Source: a virus
Lineage: Duplodnaviria > Heunggongvirae > Uroviricota > Caudoviricetes
DNA length: 15,966 bases
IMG/VR virus record: IMGVR_UViG_2872185964_000002
Strand: one strand, 5' to 3'
Every line of letters begins with the position of its first letter. Within the stretch, counting starts at the first letter, position 1. Under the pieces are notes generated by a model. The model made no database searches, was not told the DNA's origin, and saw only the letters and a program-made list of their open reading frames with translations. Made by a program: the position numbers and the translations under genes. Below are positions 10,068 through 13,718 of the stretch, in pieces.

Positions 10068-10202
10068 ATGACATTTATTCATCAGGTGATGCTGTACTTC
10101 TGTACGGCGGTCTGTGTGCTGTATCTTCTTTCGGGTGGGTACAGGGCAGTGCGCGATTTCTGGCGCAGGCAGATTGATAAAAGGGCCGCAGAGAAAATCT
10201 GA
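10068..10202 (+). CDS. small hydrophobic ORF (44 aa) whose stop codon is the first three bases of the adjacent IS terminal repeat; possibly the 5' end of an IS-interrupted gene
   Basis: MTFIHQVMLYFCTAVCVLYLLSGGY... then basic tail; TGA 10200-10202 coincides with the IS end; weak RBS. Confidence 0.25.
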   Translation: MTFIHQVMLYFCTAVCVLYLLSGGYRAVRDFWRRQIDKRAAEKI

Positions 10203-11134
10203 GGTGTACTGGCAATAGCGGACACTACCATTTGTTCTTTTTTTAAGCAGCCATCTGATGATATTTTTCCCTGAAGGCTGCCGGGAGATATTCCCCAGAC
10301 GAGAGTGACGACGCTGACGATTGTAGAAAATCTCAATGTATTCCCGTATTACTGAGATGGCTTCATCCCGGTTATTAAAACGATAGTGGCTCAGGCTCTC
10401 ATTTTTCAGCGTTCCCCAGAAGCTTTCCATCGGAGCGTTGTCGTAACAGTGACCTTTACGCGACATTGATGTTTTCAGACCAGACTGCTCCTGTATGACC
10501 CGGTAATCGTATGCGCAGTACTGTGAACCTCGATCAGAGTGGTGGATTAGCCCGGCAGGTGGGCGCTGGCTCCTGAGCGCCATAAACAGGGCTTTACCTG
10601 TCAGCTCTTTTGTCATGCGCTCTCCCATGGCGTAGCCGACAATTTCGCACGTATAAACATCTTTGATGCCAGCGAGGTACAACCATCCCTCCTGTGTGGC
10701 AACATACGTCAGGTCCGCCACCCAGACCTGATTTGGTGCTGTAGGAGCGAACGTCTGGTTCAGCAGATTTGGCGCAACTGGCAGATTGTGGTTCGGGTTC
10801 GTAGTCGCTCTGAACTTGCGTTTCTGCTTACAGCGTAGCCTTAGCTCCTTACGAAGACGTGCCAGTCGGTCACGACCAACGATGATGCCATTCTCTGCCA
10901 GCTCCGTCTGGAGCCGCCGGGTTCCATATGTTTCGCGAGTGCGGATATGTGCCACCTTAATCTCCAGTTTTAGCCGCTCATCACTTTGTTTTCTGTCTGA
11001 GGGTTCATGCTGTACCCAGTTGTAATAACCGCTCCTGGATACACCAAATACCTGACACATCGCTTCAATGGGAAATTGTTGTCGCCATTGTTCGATTAAC
11101 GCGTATTTTTCAGCGACTCCTGTGCAAAATACGT
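10200..11134 (-). mobile_element. IS600-like IS3-family element, truncated at its 5' (orfA) end; right terminal repeat starts at 10200
   Basis: + strand 10200 TGAGGTGTACTGGCAATAGCGGACAC resembles IS3-group terminal repeats; orfB complete, only the last ~13 codons of orfA (..TYFAQESLKNTR, stop at 11096-11098) remain. Junction coordinate is approximate. Confidence 0.6.
10243..11060 (-). pseudogene. IS3-family (IS600-like) transposase OrfB, apparent 1-bp deletion near 10283-10285
   Basis: Track ORF 10023..11060 carries the DDE core; adding one base at the GGG run restores a C-terminus RLGNISPAAFREKYHQMAA with stop at 10243-10245. Reading frame extends upstream of Met 11060 as expected for an OrfAB fusion. 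Confidence 0.75.
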
Positions 11135-11637
11135 AAGGCAGTATGACTTTCCGTGAGACAGATGCTGGCCAACGTGGGATATTTAACGCGGGTTAACATC
11201 GTTGTCAGAGCCGCATGGGTGAGCTGTTGCTACACCCCGGTATTTCCACCACGGAGGCCAGCATGAACAACAATAACACATTGTACGTCGGGTTAGATGT
11301 TCACAAAGAATCGATTACTGTCGCTTATGCTATCAATTCAGAACCTGTTGAACTGATGGGTAAAATTGGCACATCACCTACTGATATTCAGAATCTTTGT
11401 AAACGTCTCAGGTCAAAGTCATCGCAGGTCAGTATCGTTTATGAAGCGGGGCCCTGTGGTTATGGACTTTATCGTCGGCTGGTGAAATCCGGTTTTGACT
11501 GCATGGTCTGCGCCCCCTCACTTATCCCGAAAAAACCGGGGGAGCGGGTTAAAACCGATCGCCGTGATGCCATCAGACTTGTGCGTTCACTGCGTGCAGG
11601 AGATCTTTCTGCTGTCTACGTACCCGGCATTGAAGAT

Positions 11638-11640
11638 GAG
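11638..11640 (+). repeat. target-site duplication GAG, left copy, of the IS629 insertion
   Basis: GAG immediately flanks both IS629 termini (11638-11640 and 12949-12951). Confidence 0.6.
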
Positions 11641-11682
11641 TGAACCGCCCCGGGTTTCCTGGAGAGTGTTTTATCTGTGAAC

Positions 11683-12573
11683 TCAGGCTGCCAGATCATC
11701 GTTTCCGATGGAAGCATAATAAGCTTTTTCTGCTTCTGCCGGAGGAGTATGGCCCAGCCTTTCCAGCAATCGTCGATTATTATACCAGTCCACCCACGTG
11801 AGTGTGGCCAGTTCCACTTCTGCACGGTTTTTCCAGCTCTTACGGTGTATTACCTCCGCTTTGTAAAGACCATTGATGCTCTCCGCCATCGCGTTGTCAT
11901 ACGAGTCGCCTGTACTTCCTGTTGATGCCAGTAATCCGGCTTCCTTAAGCCGCTGTGTGTAGGCCAGCGATACATACTGAGAACCTTTATCACTGTGATG
12001 GACCGTGCCGGACGGTCGACGGGCCCATAACGCCTGCTCCAGAGCATCCAGCACGAATGTCGTTTCCATGGACGATGAGACCCGCCACCCCACGATGTAT
12101 CCGGCAAACACATCAATGATGAACGCCACATAGACGAAGCCCTGCCATGTGCTGACGTAAGTAAAATCAGCCACCCACAGCTGGTCAGGTCGTTCTGCCA
12201 CGAACTGACGGTTTACGCGGTCGCCTGCGGCAACGGCTTTCCGGCTGATGGTCGTACGGACCTTTTTACCCCGGAGAACACCGGCAAGTCCCATAACCGC
12301 CATGAGACGTGCCACAGTGCATCTGGCCACTCTGATACCTTCCCGTAACAACTGACGCCAGACTTTACGCACACCGTATACCTGATGATTCCCATCGTAT
12401 ACGCGCAGTATCTCTTTCTTCAGCCAGTCATCGCGCTGCGCACGGGCACTGCGTTTATCAGGATGATGTCGCTGTTGCTGACAGTGGTAATACGTTGACG
12501 GGGCAATATGTAGTTCACTGCATACCGGTCCGACCCCGTACAGCTTACGCAGCTTATCCAGCAGTGGCATCAC
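11683..12573 (-). CDS. IS629-type transposase OrfB (DDE)
   Basis: 296-aa intact ORF ([30 protein letters not shown]..., [23 protein letters not shown]). Confidence 0.85.
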
Positions 12574-12895
12574 TTTTTCCAGAGGCGGTCGAACTCCGCC
12601 TTCGCAAAATAAGCGGAAGCCTGGCGAAGGATATCGTTACTGCGGCGCAGTTCACGATTTTCACGTTCCAGCTCTTTCAGACGCTGACGTTCAGCGGTGG
12701 TGAGCCCGCCATCACCGCCTCCGGTATCCCGCTCATGCTGGCGTACCCAGACACGCAGAGTCTCCGGTGTACAGCCAATCTTTGGGGCAATGGAACAAAT
12801 TGCCGCCCACTGTGAGTCATATTCGCCCTGACTTTCCAGAACCATACGAATCGCCCTCTGACGGACTTCGGGGAAAAACGAGTATTTTTAGTCAT
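12570..12895 (-). pseudogene. IS629-type transposase OrfA, apparent 1-bp deletion in homopolymer at 12871-12874
   Basis: Minus-strand ATG at 12893-12895 gives MTKNTRFSP then a frame shift; one extra C restores ...[21 protein letters not shown], continuous with ORF 12570..12845. Confidence 0.75.
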
Positions 12896-12948
12896 CCTGT
12901 TTACCTCTTTCTCAGGGAGTTTAGTCTCCAGGATTCCCGGGCGGTTCA

Positions 12949-12951
12949 GAG
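12949..12951 (+). repeat. target-site duplication GAG, right copy, of the IS629 insertion
   Basis: See left copy. Confidence 0.6.
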
Positions 12952-13718
12952 GCATTCCGGGATTTGGCCCGGGCATGGGCATCTGCCCGCGATGATTTAC
13001 GGCATGCAAGGCAACGTCTGAAATCGTTTCTTCTGGTTCATGGGGTCCATTATGTCGGGCGAGCAGATTGGGGCCCTGCACACCGACGCTGGCTCAGCAA
13101 ATACTCATTCGAAAGTCCCTGGCGACAATTAGCTTTTGACGAACACCGTCGTACAATAGAAGACCGGCAGGCACAATGTGAACGGCTGGAATCCGCCCTG
13201 AAGGAGGCCGTTACCGAATGGAGGCTGTATCCGGTAGTAGAGGCGCTGCAAGCCATGCGAGGGATTCAGTTTATTACTGCGGTTGGATTAATTTCTGAAC
13301 TGGGTGATCTGACCCGTTTTGAACATCCACGACAACTGATGTCATGGTTTGGTATCACGCCATCAGAATATTCATCGGGTGGAAGCAGACATCAGGGCAG
13401 CATTACCAAAGCCGGAAACAGCTATGCCAGAAAGCTATTGGTCGAGGCAGCGTGGAGTTACCGTCATCCGGCACGCATCAGTCCGGCAATACAAAAAAGG
13501 CAGGAAAATTTACCCCGCCCCGTCATTGACAGAGCATGGGATGCTCAACTCAGGCTTTGTAAGAGGTATCGAAAACTTCAGGCCAAAGGAAAGAATGTCA
13601 ATATTACAATTGTTGCTGTTGCACGTGAGCTGGCGGGTTTTATCTGGGATATGGGCCGAATAGCAATGTCTGTCGCACAACAACCACAATGTCACAAATA
13701 AAAAATGAGAATAACCAG

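What the first reader, a model, noticed from the sequence alone, without database searches (positions are those of the whole stretch)
10200..13701. Nested IS insertions: IS629 precisely inside an IS110-family recombinase gene with GAG duplication, next to a truncated IS600-like element
The IS629-like element (11641-12948; 25-bp imperfect terminal repeats) is flanked by direct GAG repeats. Removing 11641-12951 restores one in-frame 375-aa IS110-family ORF reading ...VPGIEDEAFRDLARAWA..., which dates the IS629 insertion after the IS110-family element arrived. The IS600-like element to the left lacks most of orfA and its left terminal repeat, and the junction near 11135 abuts the IS110-family left end.
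Basis: seen in the sequence. Interest (0 to 1): 0.55.

Follow-up and report, generated by a model that had tools for sequence, protein, structure and literature searches.

The report
Four insertion sequences nested like dolls

Summary
The central observation holds. An IS629 copy (11641-12948, minus strand) is flanked by GAG/GAG. Removing it with one GAG gives 1525 nt that match intact ISSso6 copies at 100% without gaps, and restores the 375-aa IS110-family transposase.

The reading of the surroundings is wrong in three ways.
1. IS600 is not truncated. Its missing 330 bp lie 5.3 kb to the right, just past the window end. An IS66-family element (about 2.5 kb, ISEc43-like) splits IS600 and is flanked by an 8-bp duplication, CAAAATAC.
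2. ISSso6 does not abut IS600. It sits inside the terminal inverted repeat of the IS66-family element, after its first five bases (GTAAG, 11133-11137).
3. ISSso6 runs to 13966/13968, not 13701.

The 267-nt tail of ISSso6 encodes a conserved structured RNA. It has two variable segments that match the flanking target in 27 relatives (permutation 0/20000). In ISSso6 they fit GTA-AG-CG, the tip of IS66-family repeats. This is the known seekRNA/bridge-RNA mechanism.

The IS629 copy is itself decayed, with an orfA frameshift and a 1-bp deletion in one terminal repeat.

Every element is catalogued and the mechanism was published in 2024, so interest is low to moderate. The only increment is the guide and target assignment for ISSso6.

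The parts
10200..11132 (-). IS600, right-hand 933 bp (orfB and the last codons of orfA). A 1-bp deletion near 10273-10283 shifts the orfB frame.
   Evidence: 99.6% identity to positions 1-935 of a complete annotated IS600, with one gap. Pfam rve and HTH_21; NCBIfam IS3 family transposase, 325 bits.
11125..11132 (.). CAAAATAC, one copy of the 8-bp target duplication made when the IS66-family element inserted into IS600. The other copy lies outside the window at coordinate 16468-16475.
   Evidence...tgtgCAAAATAC|GTAAG... on the left and ...CTTAC|CAAAATACgctg... at L009 15206; the two IS600 alignments overlap at positions 927-935.
11133..11137 (-). GTAAG, the first five bases of the terminal inverted repeat of the IS66-family element. 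ISSso6 separates them from the rest of that repeat.
   Evidence: The uninterrupted SopA site reads catGTAAGCGCTGGG and the occupied site reads catGTAAG[ISSso6]CGCTGGG, so GTAAG belongs to the target. The other end of the IS66-family element reads GTAAGCGTAAACTG.
11136..13966 (+). ISSso6 (IS110/IS1111-type): 1520 bp of its own sequence plus the 1311-bp IS629 insertion. The shared AG dinucleotide is counted at the left end. Its second copy is at 13967-13968.
   Evidence: 100% identity to intact ISSso6 copies after excision. RefSeq annotation as ISSso6. Ends defined by the empty site and by 31 relatives.
11142..11155 (+). Left subterminal inverted repeat, TATGACTTTCCGTG. It is preceded by the left terminal extension (AGGCAGT when the repeat is taken as 13 bp).
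   Evidence: it pairs with 13951-13964 and is conserved in position across relatives.
11263..11640 (+). ISSso6 transposase gene, codons 1-126 (most of the RuvC-like DEDD domain).
   Evidence: PF01548 covers residues 9-153. The same 126-aa product is called in CP026872.1.
11638..11640 (.). GAG, left copy of the 3-bp target duplication made by IS629.
   Evidence: a single GAG in intact copies.
11641..12948 (-). IS629 copy, 1308 bp. orfB is at 11683-12570. orfA starts at ATG 12895 and is frameshifted at codon 9 by a 1-bp deletion after 12869. A second 1-bp deletion after 12938 lies in its terminal repeat.
   Evidence: 98.6-99.5% identity to intact 1310-bp E. coli copies; differences listed. Members of the 90% protein cluster are named 'IS629 transposase OrfB'. 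Pfam and NCBIfam IS3 family hits.
12499..12615 (-). ALIL pseudoknot, the programmed-frameshift signal between IS629 orfA and orfB.
   Evidence: Rfam RF01497, 116 bits, E = 4e-30.
12949..12951 (.). GAG, right copy of the IS629 target duplication.
12952..13701 (+). ISSso6 transposase gene, codons 127-375 plus the stop codon. It carries the PF02371 domain with the G..P....SG motif.
13716..13908 (+). Conserved structured RNA encoded in the non-coding tail of ISSso6 (seekRNA / bridge-RNA-like).
   Evidence: MFE -88 kcal/mol, z = -4.7, 0/200 shuffles fold as well. In 27 relatives, 49 pairs are 97.6% paired. 16 pairs have compensatory changes against 6.8 in shuffles (0/500) and 2-6 in slid controls.
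13760..13769 (+). Variable segment V1 (TTAGCGCTTG), on the 5' strand of an internal loop. Its reverse complement matches the target from -2 to +8 around the insertion point.
   Evidence: own target 5.1 of 8 non-core positions against 2.1 for other elements' targets. For ISSso6, CAAGCGCTAA versus TAAGCGTCAA (IS66-family repeat) and TAAGCGCTGG (SopA site).
13797..13805 (+). Variable segment V2 (ACGTAAGAA), on the 3' strand of the same internal loop. It has the same sense as the target's left flank plus the AG core.
   Evidence: own target 3.6 of 5 against 1.4 for others. In the window, ACGTA+AG matches 7 of 7.
13856..13862 (+). Invariant AUAUCAG in the RNA, identical to the right end of the element plus the core. 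Candidate donor-end guide (inferred only).
   Evidence: Invariant columns in A2; position.
13951..13964 (+). Right subterminal inverted repeat, CACGGAAAGTCATA. It is followed by the right terminal extension (ATC when the repeat is taken as 13 bp).
13969..13969 (.). One extra G between ISSso6 plus core and the rest of the IS66-family repeat. It is absent from other copies at the same kind of site.
   Evidence: window ...ATATCAGgcgtcaacgg; L003, L006 and L007 ...ATATCAGcgtcaacgg.
13970..15966 (-). Body of the IS66-family element (ISEc43-like): rest of the terminal repeat, tnpC split into two ORFs (13995-14990 and 14984-15613), and tnpB (15616-15966). It continues to window coordinate 16467.
   Evidence: Pfam DDE_Tnp_IS66, zf-IS66 and TnpB_IS66 on the called genes. 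Cluster names. Element size 2503 bp once the inserts are subtracted.

Best explanation
The region is a four-level nest of catalogued insertion sequences in a Shigella chromosome. The nesting topology suggests this order.
(1) IS600 (IS3 family) lay at the edge of a degraded Stx-phage-like prophage.
(2) An IS66-family element (ISEc43-like, about 2.5 kb) transposed into the orfA end of IS600 and made the 8-bp duplication CAAAATAC.
(3) ISSso6, an IS110/IS1111-type element with a DEDD transposase, inserted into the terminal inverted repeat of that IS66-family element, between GTA-AG and CG. Only the AG dinucleotide is shared by donor and target.
(4) IS629 (IS3 family) transposed into codon 126 of the ISSso6 transposase gene and duplicated GAG. 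This separated the RuvC-like domain from the C-terminal domain.

Step 3 is best explained by RNA-guided target choice. The 267-nt tail of ISSso6 encodes a structured RNA. One of its internal loops carries two short guides. One is complementary to the top strand of the target (core plus right flank). The other matches the left flank plus core. In ISSso6 these guides fit GTAAGCG, the conserved tip of IS66-family repeats.

Shown here: the anatomy, all junctions, the duplications, the conservation of the RNA structure, and guide-target covariation across relatives. Inferred: that the RNA is made and acts as the guide, and the temporal order.

The nest is now inert in cis. The ISSso6 transposase gene is split. 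IS629 has an orfA frameshift and a damaged terminal repeat. IS600 orfB and the IS66-family tnpC are frameshifted.
For: Source: the window is identical (0 mismatches over 14704 nt) to CP026872.1.

IS629 in ISSso6: excision restores a 100% match to intact ISSso6 and the 375-aa ORF. NCBIfam IS110 RNA-guided transposase, 274 bits.

IS600 split by the IS66-family element: IS600 positions 1-935 and 927-1262 flank it. Its ends are GTAAGCG... and the 8-bp repeat is CAAAATAC. tnpA, tnpB and tnpC domains are present.

GTAAG belongs to the target: empty versus occupied SopA site.

The same RE-IS66 repeat junction occurs in 22 of 104 E. coli records that carry the ISSso6 right end. Four loci read here (the window, L003, L006, L007) have different left flanks.

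Family-wide ends: AGNCAGT-ATGACT...AGTCAT-ATC followed by AG or AA. This is the 7-bp/3-bp extension plus subterminal repeat layout described for IS1111-type elements (PMC11187229).

Structured RNA: z = -4.7. 16 covarying pairs against 6.8 in shuffles, 0/500.

Guides: V1 and V2 lie on opposite strands of one internal loop. They match their own targets far better than other elements' targets (5.1/8 against 2.1/8, and 3.6/5 against 1.4/5; permutation 0/20000). The top-strand complement comes 5' of the bottom-strand match, the order reported for IS1111-family seekRNAs.
Against: No expression or transposition data exist for ISSso6 itself. Rfam 15 has no family that matches the RNA.

The ISSso6 guides match the IS66-family repeat imperfectly: 7 of 10 plus one G-T wobble for V1.

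Only about a fifth of E. coli records with ISSso6 show the IS66-repeat junction. Other sites (SopA, upstream of a CaiF/GrlA gene, an IS21-like element) are also used.

An extra G at 13969 is not explained by a clean insertion.

The ISSso6 transposase (375 aa, roughly 17-25% identical to the other IS110-group transposases shown in the matrix excerpts of the paper's supplement) lies outside the typical IS1111 size range, so which sub-family it belongs to is unclear.

The donor-binding part of the RNA could not be assigned.

The temporal order is inferred from topology alone.
Confidence: 0.85

Rival explanations
1. One reading: IS600 is a truncated remnant that lost orfA and its left repeat by deletion, and the ISSso6 left end directly abuts the break.
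For: Within the window only IS600 positions 1-935 are visible, and ISSso6-conserved sequence follows immediately.
Against: The missing IS600 part (positions 927-1262) is present 5.3 kb to the right in the same record. It overlaps the first part by the 8-bp repeat CAAAATAC, on the far side of an IS66-family element with GTAAGCG ends. The five bases GTAAG between IS600 and ISSso6 are target sequence, not ISSso6 sequence.
Confidence: 0.03
2. IS629 entered ISSso6 elsewhere. The 2.8-kb ISSso6::IS629 composite was then moved into the IS66-family repeat in trans by transposase from an intact ISSso6 copy. On this reading the nesting does not date IS629 after the arrival of ISSso6 at this locus.
For: The composite keeps both ends, both subterminal repeats and the whole guide-RNA region. 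Cargo flanked by IS ends can be moved in trans in IS1111-type elements (PMC11187229 abstract). Contigs from five other assemblies, with at least three different left flanks, stop exactly at the IS629 insertion point.
Against: No second complete ISSso6::IS629 copy was seen. Three of those five contigs end ...GAGG, the uninterrupted ISSso6 reading, which fits assembly-graph forks rather than further interrupted copies. None of the E. coli complete genomes holds the composite (no place covers 80% or more of the query).
Confidence: 0.1
3. ISSso6 has no RNA-guided specificity. It is found next to IS66-family sequence because the IS66-family element and ISSso6 spread together as one unit, and the 'guides' are chance similarity.
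For: Many ISSso6 copies share the same right flank. The V1 match to the IS66-family repeat is imperfect.
Against: With only 5 bp of its repeat left at the tip, that end of the IS66-family element is unlikely to work. The left flanks beyond GTAAG differ among copies. ISSso6 also sits in non-IS66 sites that share GTAAGCG or AAG. Across relatives with quite different targets, the two variable RNA segments change in step with the flanks (0/20000).
Confidence: 0.04

Closest known systems
IS629 (IS3 family; also recorded as IS1203 or IS3411-like) in Shigella and EHEC
   Same: 1.3 kb, TG...CA ends with repeats of about 25 bp, orfA and orfB with a frameshift pseudoknot (Rfam ALIL), 3-bp target duplication, 98.6-99.5% identity to E. 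coli copies.
   Different: This copy is 1308 bp rather than 1310 bp. It has a frameshift at orfA codon 9 and a 1-bp deletion in one terminal repeat, so it is probably no longer mobile on its own.
ISSso6 (ISfinder entry, filed under the IS110 family)
   Same: The restored protein is the sequence that RefSeq names 'IS110-like element ISSso6 family transposase', and it starts like the ISSso6 entry in the supplement of PMC11187229. The DNA is 100% identical to intact copies.
   Different: Here it is interrupted by IS629. One extra G lies at its right junction.
IS1111-family elements with seekRNA (ISEc11, ISKpn4, ISPa11; Siddiquee et al. 2024, PMC11187229) and the IS621 bridge RNA
   Same: Subterminal inverted repeats, 7-bp and 3-bp terminal extensions, a long non-coding region downstream of tnp, and no target duplication beyond a shared dinucleotide. 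The RNA has a top-strand complement 5' of a bottom-strand match, and the two overlap at the insertion point. The guides lie on opposite strands of an internal loop, which from my own knowledge resembles the target-binding loop of the IS621 bridge RNA.
   Different: The transposase is 375 aa against 330-350 aa in typical IS1111 members, and only distantly related to them. No experimental data exist for ISSso6. The donor-binding loop was not identified. No Rfam model matches.
IS4321 / IS5075 (IS1111 family), which insert into the terminal repeats of Tn21-family transposons
   Same: A site-specific IS110/IS1111-type element whose preferred target is the terminal inverted repeat of another mobile element. 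IS4321 has a defined target with about 900 insertions. That this target is the Tn21-family repeat is from my own knowledge (Partridge and Hall 2003).
   Different: The target here is the first 7-9 bp of IS66-family repeats, a different host element. The specificity is looser, because other GTAAGCG-like sites are also used.
IS66 family (ISEc43-like)
   Same: tnpA, tnpB and tnpC genes, ends starting GTAAGCG, and an 8-bp target duplication. That these are family hallmarks is from my own knowledge.
   Different: One terminal repeat is split by ISSso6, and tnpC is split into two ORFs.

Membership tests
IS3 family / IS629 | Near-identity to known IS629 copies over the full length | tested here: met
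   98.6-99.5% over about 1310 bp to intact E. coli copies. Members of the 90% cluster are named IS629 OrfB.
IS3 family / IS629 | orfA and orfB with a programmed -1 frameshift, and a DDE (rve) catalytic domain | tested here: met
   ALIL pseudoknot, 116 bits. rve, HTH_21 and HTH_Tnp_1 domains; NCBIfam transpos_IS3, 309 bits. orfA is frameshifted in this copy.
IS3 family / IS629 | Terminal inverted repeats (TG...CA) and a 3-4 bp target duplication | tested here: met
   Repeats aligned. GAG/GAG, with a single GAG in intact ISSso6.
IS110 family (DEDD transposase), element ISSso6 | Transposase with an N-terminal DEDD/RuvC-like domain and a C-terminal PF02371 domain | tested here: met
   PF01548 (residues 9-153) and PF02371 (223-297). 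NF033542, 274 bits against a cut-off of 140.
IS110 family (DEDD transposase), element ISSso6 | Identity with the catalogued ISSso6 | tested here: met
   The exact protein carries the ISSso6 name in RefSeq. It has the same N-terminus as ISSso6 in the supplement of PMC11187229. The DNA is 100% identical to annotated copies. ISfinder itself could not be queried.
IS1111-type organisation | Subterminal inverted repeats of 11-13 bp with a 7-bp left and a 3-bp right extension | tested here: met
   AGGCAGT-ATGACTTTCCGTG ... CACGGAAAGTCAT-ATC. The same layout is seen in 31 relatives. Criterion taken.
IS1111-type organisation | Long non-coding region downstream of tnp | tested here: met
   267 nt downstream against about 127 nt upstream.
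IS1111-type organisation | Transposase of 330-350 aa that aligns over its full length with IS1111-group proteins | tested here: inconclusive
   375 aa. Roughly 17-25% identity in the matrix excerpts, whose columns were not identified. No phylogeny was made here.
seekRNA / bridge RNA guided insertion | Conserved structured RNA in the non-coding region | tested here: met
   (covariation above the shuffled and slid controls).
seekRNA / bridge RNA guided insertion | [quoted passage not shown] | tested here: met
   V1 and V2. Own-target versus cross-target scores; permutation 0/20000.
seekRNA / bridge RNA guided insertion | The RNA is expressed, binds the transposase and is needed for transposition | not testable with these tools
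   Needs RNA sequencing, co-purification and transposition assays.
seekRNA / bridge RNA guided insertion | A second loop that recognises the donor ends | tested here: inconclusive
   Invariant AUAUCAG equals the right end plus the core, but no partner guide could be assigned.
IS66 family | tnpA-tnpB-tnpC gene set | tested here: met
   Pfam DDE_Tnp_IS66, zf-IS66, LZ_Tnp_IS66, TnpB_IS66 and HTH_Tnp_1 on consecutive genes. ISEc43 names.
IS66 family | Terminal repeats starting GTAAGCG and an 8-bp target duplication | tested here: met
   Both ends and CAAAATAC/CAAAATAC.
IS600 (IS3 family) | Full-length identity to IS600 | tested here: met
   Positions 1-935 and 927-1262, both above 99%.
IS600 (IS3 family) | 3-bp target duplication flanking the element | tested here: not met
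   Flanks are ATC and TAC. The copy sits at a rearrangement joint. This does not affect its identity.

The most novel reading that the evidence does not exclude
ISSso6 and its relatives (found here from enterobacteria to Burkholderiaceae and beyond) use one internal loop of a roughly 190-nt RNA as a two-strand target reader. ISSso6 would then be a specialised 'IS that hunts another IS' and disables one end of its host. Because the core of the guide (AGCGCU) is a palindrome, the guide can also recognise its own coding DNA. This would explain the duplicated ISSso6 right end joined at TTAG|CGCTTG in an EIEC pINV plasmid (L001).
Probability: 0.45. Interest if true: 0.4.

Novelty: already known. 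Interest (0 to 1): 0.28.

Why it matters
For annotation, the case shows how a window edge plus a 5-bp remnant can make a split element look truncated. The correct reading is four nested, individually decayed insertion sequences, a typical product of IS expansion in Shigella. For biology, the modest gain is a guide and target assignment for one catalogued IS110/IS1111-type element. It rests on covariation across relatives that are 61-81% identical at the protein level, and it gives a natural example of an RNA-guided IS that repeatedly lands in the terminal repeat of another IS family. This could serve people who mine bridge/seekRNA systems for programmable recombinases. It does not change current understanding.

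Tried and rejected
1. Rfam 15 at gathering thresholds on the whole window, and at E <= 10 on 13600-14050: no RNA family matches the ISSso6 tail. The only hit is a chance SAM-Chlorobi match at E = 3.5.
2. E. coli relatives at 95.6% identity whose homology stops at 13781 looked like natural re-programming of the guide region. They turned out to be copies truncated by another IS.
3. EIEC pINV hits that seemed to share the IS600/ISSso6 junction (H2, H26) carry instead a separate IS600 inserted inside ISSso6. 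The window's junction is not present in the E. coli collection.
4. Contigs L010-L014, which carry the same 126-aa truncated product, were examined as possible further ISSso6::IS629 copies. They simply end at the insertion point, and three of them continue with the uninterrupted base, so they are uninformative.
5. A same-sense longest-match scan did not reveal the second guide. It became visible only after the non-coding regions were aligned.
6. The donor-binding guides could not be assigned from sequence.
7. A sigma-70 scan of the linear right end found nothing. A -35 TTGACA (13947-13952), 17 bp, then CAGTAT would form only on a circle junction. That is my reading of the sequence and was not tested.
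8. Literature searches for the accession and for IS629 end sequences returned nothing useful.

Full report
**Check of the observation**

The sequence shows TGAACCGCCCCGGG... starting at 11641 and ...CCCGGGCGGTTCA ending at 12948. GAG lies immediately before (11638-11640) and after (12949-12951).
- The minus strand carries an IS3-type orfB (11683-12570) and a shortened orfA. Rfam finds the ALIL frameshift pseudoknot at 12499-12615 (116 bits).
- Pfam and NCBIfam place both ORFs in the IS3 family.
- Proteins at 90% identity or more carry the name IS629 OrfB.
- Removing 11641-12951 gives a 375-aa ORF from ATG 11263 that reads ...VPGIEDEAFRDLARAWA.... It scores 274 bits on NCBIfam 'IS110 family RNA-guided transposase'.
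- The excised DNA (1525 nt) is 100% identical, without gaps, to uninterrupted copies that RefSeq annotates as ISSso6 (L003, L007). The GAG duplication and the precise insertion are therefore established and not a matter of chance.

**State of the IS629 copy**

I compared it with two intact 1310-bp E. coli copies whose transposase is annotated with a programmed frameshift. The window copy lacks one G after 12869, which shifts the frame at orfA codon 9 and explains the 91-aa ORF. It also lacks one G after 12938, inside its terminal repeat. It is thus a decayed copy.

**The IS110-family element and its true ends**

In seven E. coli contexts the conserved block runs from GTAAGGCAG... (window 11133) to ...GTCATATCAG (13968).
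- An uninterrupted SopA pseudogene reads ...catGTAAGCGCTGGG... The occupied allele reads ...catGTAAG[insert]CGCTGGG.... GTAAG is therefore target sequence.
- The insert is 1520 bp, and only the dinucleotide AG is shared by both junctions (GTA-AG-[GCAGT...ATATC]-AG-CG).
- With AG counted on the left, the element has a 7-bp left extension (AGGCAGT), 13-bp subterminal inverted repeats (ATGACTTTCCGTG / CACGGAAAGTCAT) and a 3-bp right extension (ATC).
- This is the layout described for IS1111-type elements (PMC11187229). It recurs in 31 relatives with 61-100% protein identity.
- The finding's right limit, 13701, is only the stop codon. The element continues for another 267 nt.

**IS600 is split, not truncated**

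An exact-protein look-up placed the window in CP026872.1 (4.71 Mb), with 0 mismatches over the 14.7-kb overlap. Protein names point to Shigella.
- Window 10200-11133 is IS600 positions 1-935 (99.6%, one 1-bp deletion).
- IS600 positions 927-1262 follow at L009 15206-15541, which is window coordinate 16468-16803, about 500 bp beyond the window end.
- Between the two parts lies an element with tnpA, tnpB and tnpC of the IS66 family. Its far end reads GTAAGCGTAAACTG... and it is bounded by CAAAATAC on both sides.
- After ISSso6, the extra G and IS629 are subtracted, it measures 2503 bp. Close TnpC relatives are named ISEc43.
- The near end of this element is GTAAG (11133-11137), then ISSso6, then (G)CGTCAACGGAGCACCG... 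(13969 onward).
- The architecture is therefore IS600 > IS66-family > ISSso6 > IS629.

**Why ISSso6 sits in that repeat**

- In three other loci read in full (L003, L006, L007) ISSso6 has the same right flank, CGTCAACGG..., but different left flanks.
- Of 104 E. coli records with the ISSso6 right end, 22 show this junction.
- Other sites resemble GTAAGCG: SopA has GTAAG|CGCTGGG, and an IS21-like gene has ATAAG|. An AGAAG|TGAATG site also occurs.

*The RNA structure.*
- The non-coding tail folds far better than shuffles (z = -4.7).
- I collected 80 loci that encode relatives (49-81% protein identity; Caballeronia, Paraburkholderia, Cupriavidus and others) and aligned the tails.
- The consensus structure has 49 pairs that are 97.6% paired. 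Sixteen pairs have compensatory changes, against 6.8 in column shuffles (0/500) and 2-6 when the partners are slid.

*The two variable segments.*
- Two hypervariable segments lie on opposite strands of one internal loop, closed by two helices that both show compensatory changes.
- V1 is at window 13760-13769. Its reverse complement matches the target from -2 to +8.
- V2 is at 13797-13805. It repeats the left flank plus the core.
- Across 14 elements with usable flanks, own-target matches were 5.1 of 8 for V1 and 3.6 of 5 for V2. Cross-target matches were 2.1 and 1.4. None of 20000 permutations reached the observed total.
- The order (top-strand complement first) and the overlap at the insertion point are what Siddiquee et al. 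report for IS1111-family seekRNAs.
- For ISSso6, V1 (rc CAAGCGCTAA) and V2 (ACGTA-AG) fit GTA-AG-CG(C/T). Both ends of the IS66-family element in this record begin with that sequence, and from my own knowledge IS66-family repeats in general do too.
- RNA-guided choice of the IS66-family repeat tip is the best-supported mechanism. Expression and function of the RNA remain inferred.

**Consequences and order**

- IS629 cuts the transposase gene at codon 126. The RuvC-like domain ends up on one side and the PF02371 domain with its SG motif on the other.
- Both ISSso6 ends and the guide region are intact, so the composite could still be moved in trans. The nesting therefore suggests, but does not prove, that IS629 arrived after ISSso6 settled here.
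- IS600 orfB and the IS66-family tnpC are frameshifted too.
- IS600 has no 3-bp duplication: the flanks are ATC and TAC. Stx-phage-like prophage DNA lies on one side and an ABC-transporter fragment on the other. It therefore marks a rearrangement joint.

**Comparison and verdict**

All four elements are catalogued, nests of this kind are expected in Shigella (PMC7373316), and the guide-RNA mechanism was published in 2024. What is added here is the corrected architecture and a guide and target assignment for ISSso6 and its clade. The closest analogy is IS4321/IS5075 in Tn21-family repeats. Unexplained details are the extra G at 13969, the undefined donor-binding part of the RNA, and a conserved complementarity between the left end (CGCGGGTTA, 11187-11195) and the RNA (UAACCCGCG, 13846-13854).

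Noticed in passing
L001 5760-5997 (EIEC pINV plasmid NZ_JBLWMG010000002.1): Directly after the ISSso6 right end (...GTCATATCAG) comes a second copy of element positions 1319-1525, then the IS66-family repeat. The joint TTAG|CGCTTG lies inside the DNA that encodes guide V1. The core of that guide, AGCGCT, is a palindrome, so this looks like self-targeting of the guide-coding DNA. The left-hand product of the event was not found.
   Followed up: partly
L010-L014 (five draft assemblies); corresponds to window 11640/11641: Contigs with at least three different left flanks (an inositol/MFS gene cluster, ubiC-SopA, an IS21-like istB) stop exactly at the IS629 insertion point in ISSso6. Three end ...GAGG, the uninterrupted reading. 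Either the assemblies fork there or further interrupted copies exist.
   Followed up: partly
window 13969: One extra G lies between the ISSso6 right end plus core (ATATCAG) and CGTCAACGG of the IS66-family repeat. It is absent from L003, L006 and L007.
   Followed up: partly
window 10197-10199 and L009 15544-15546: IS600 lacks a 3-bp target duplication (ATC versus TAC). Prophage DNA lies on one side and an ABC-transporter gene fragment on the other, so the element sits at a rearrangement joint.
   Followed up: partly
window 11187-11195 and 13846-13854: CGCGGGTTA in the ISSso6 left end (5' of the transposase start) is complementary to UAACCCGCG in the tail RNA. The pair of motifs recurs in many relatives. 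Its meaning is unknown; RNA-mRNA pairing or a protein site are possibilities.
   Followed up: no
window 13947-13952 with 11139-11144: On a circularised ISSso6, the right end would supply a perfect -35 (TTGACA) and the left end CAGTAT, 17 bp downstream. Both motifs are conserved in relatives. This fits the junction promoter described for IS1111-type circles but was not tested.
   Followed up: no
window 1-10199: Stx-phage-like lambdoid prophage segment, about 92% identical to phage 1720a-02 and to Stx2a phages. Three tRNA genes lie at 7225-7471 and an STnc100 match at 7550-7753. No stx genes lie between the tRNAs and the DUF1737 gene. IS600 cuts the segment at 10200.
   Followed up: partly
L002 6744-8533 (EIEC pINV plasmid NZ_JBLWKF010000002.1): ISEc11, an experimentally studied IS1111-family element, sits inside the tnpB gene of an IS66-family element. 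This is a second IS110/IS1111-type element hosted by an IS66-family element.
   Followed up: no
L027, L031, L033, L036 and other relatives: In several relatives the dinucleotide after the right end is AA, while the element starts with AG. The V1 guide also reads AA there and V2 reads AG. The two 'core' copies therefore need not be identical in this clade.
   Followed up: no
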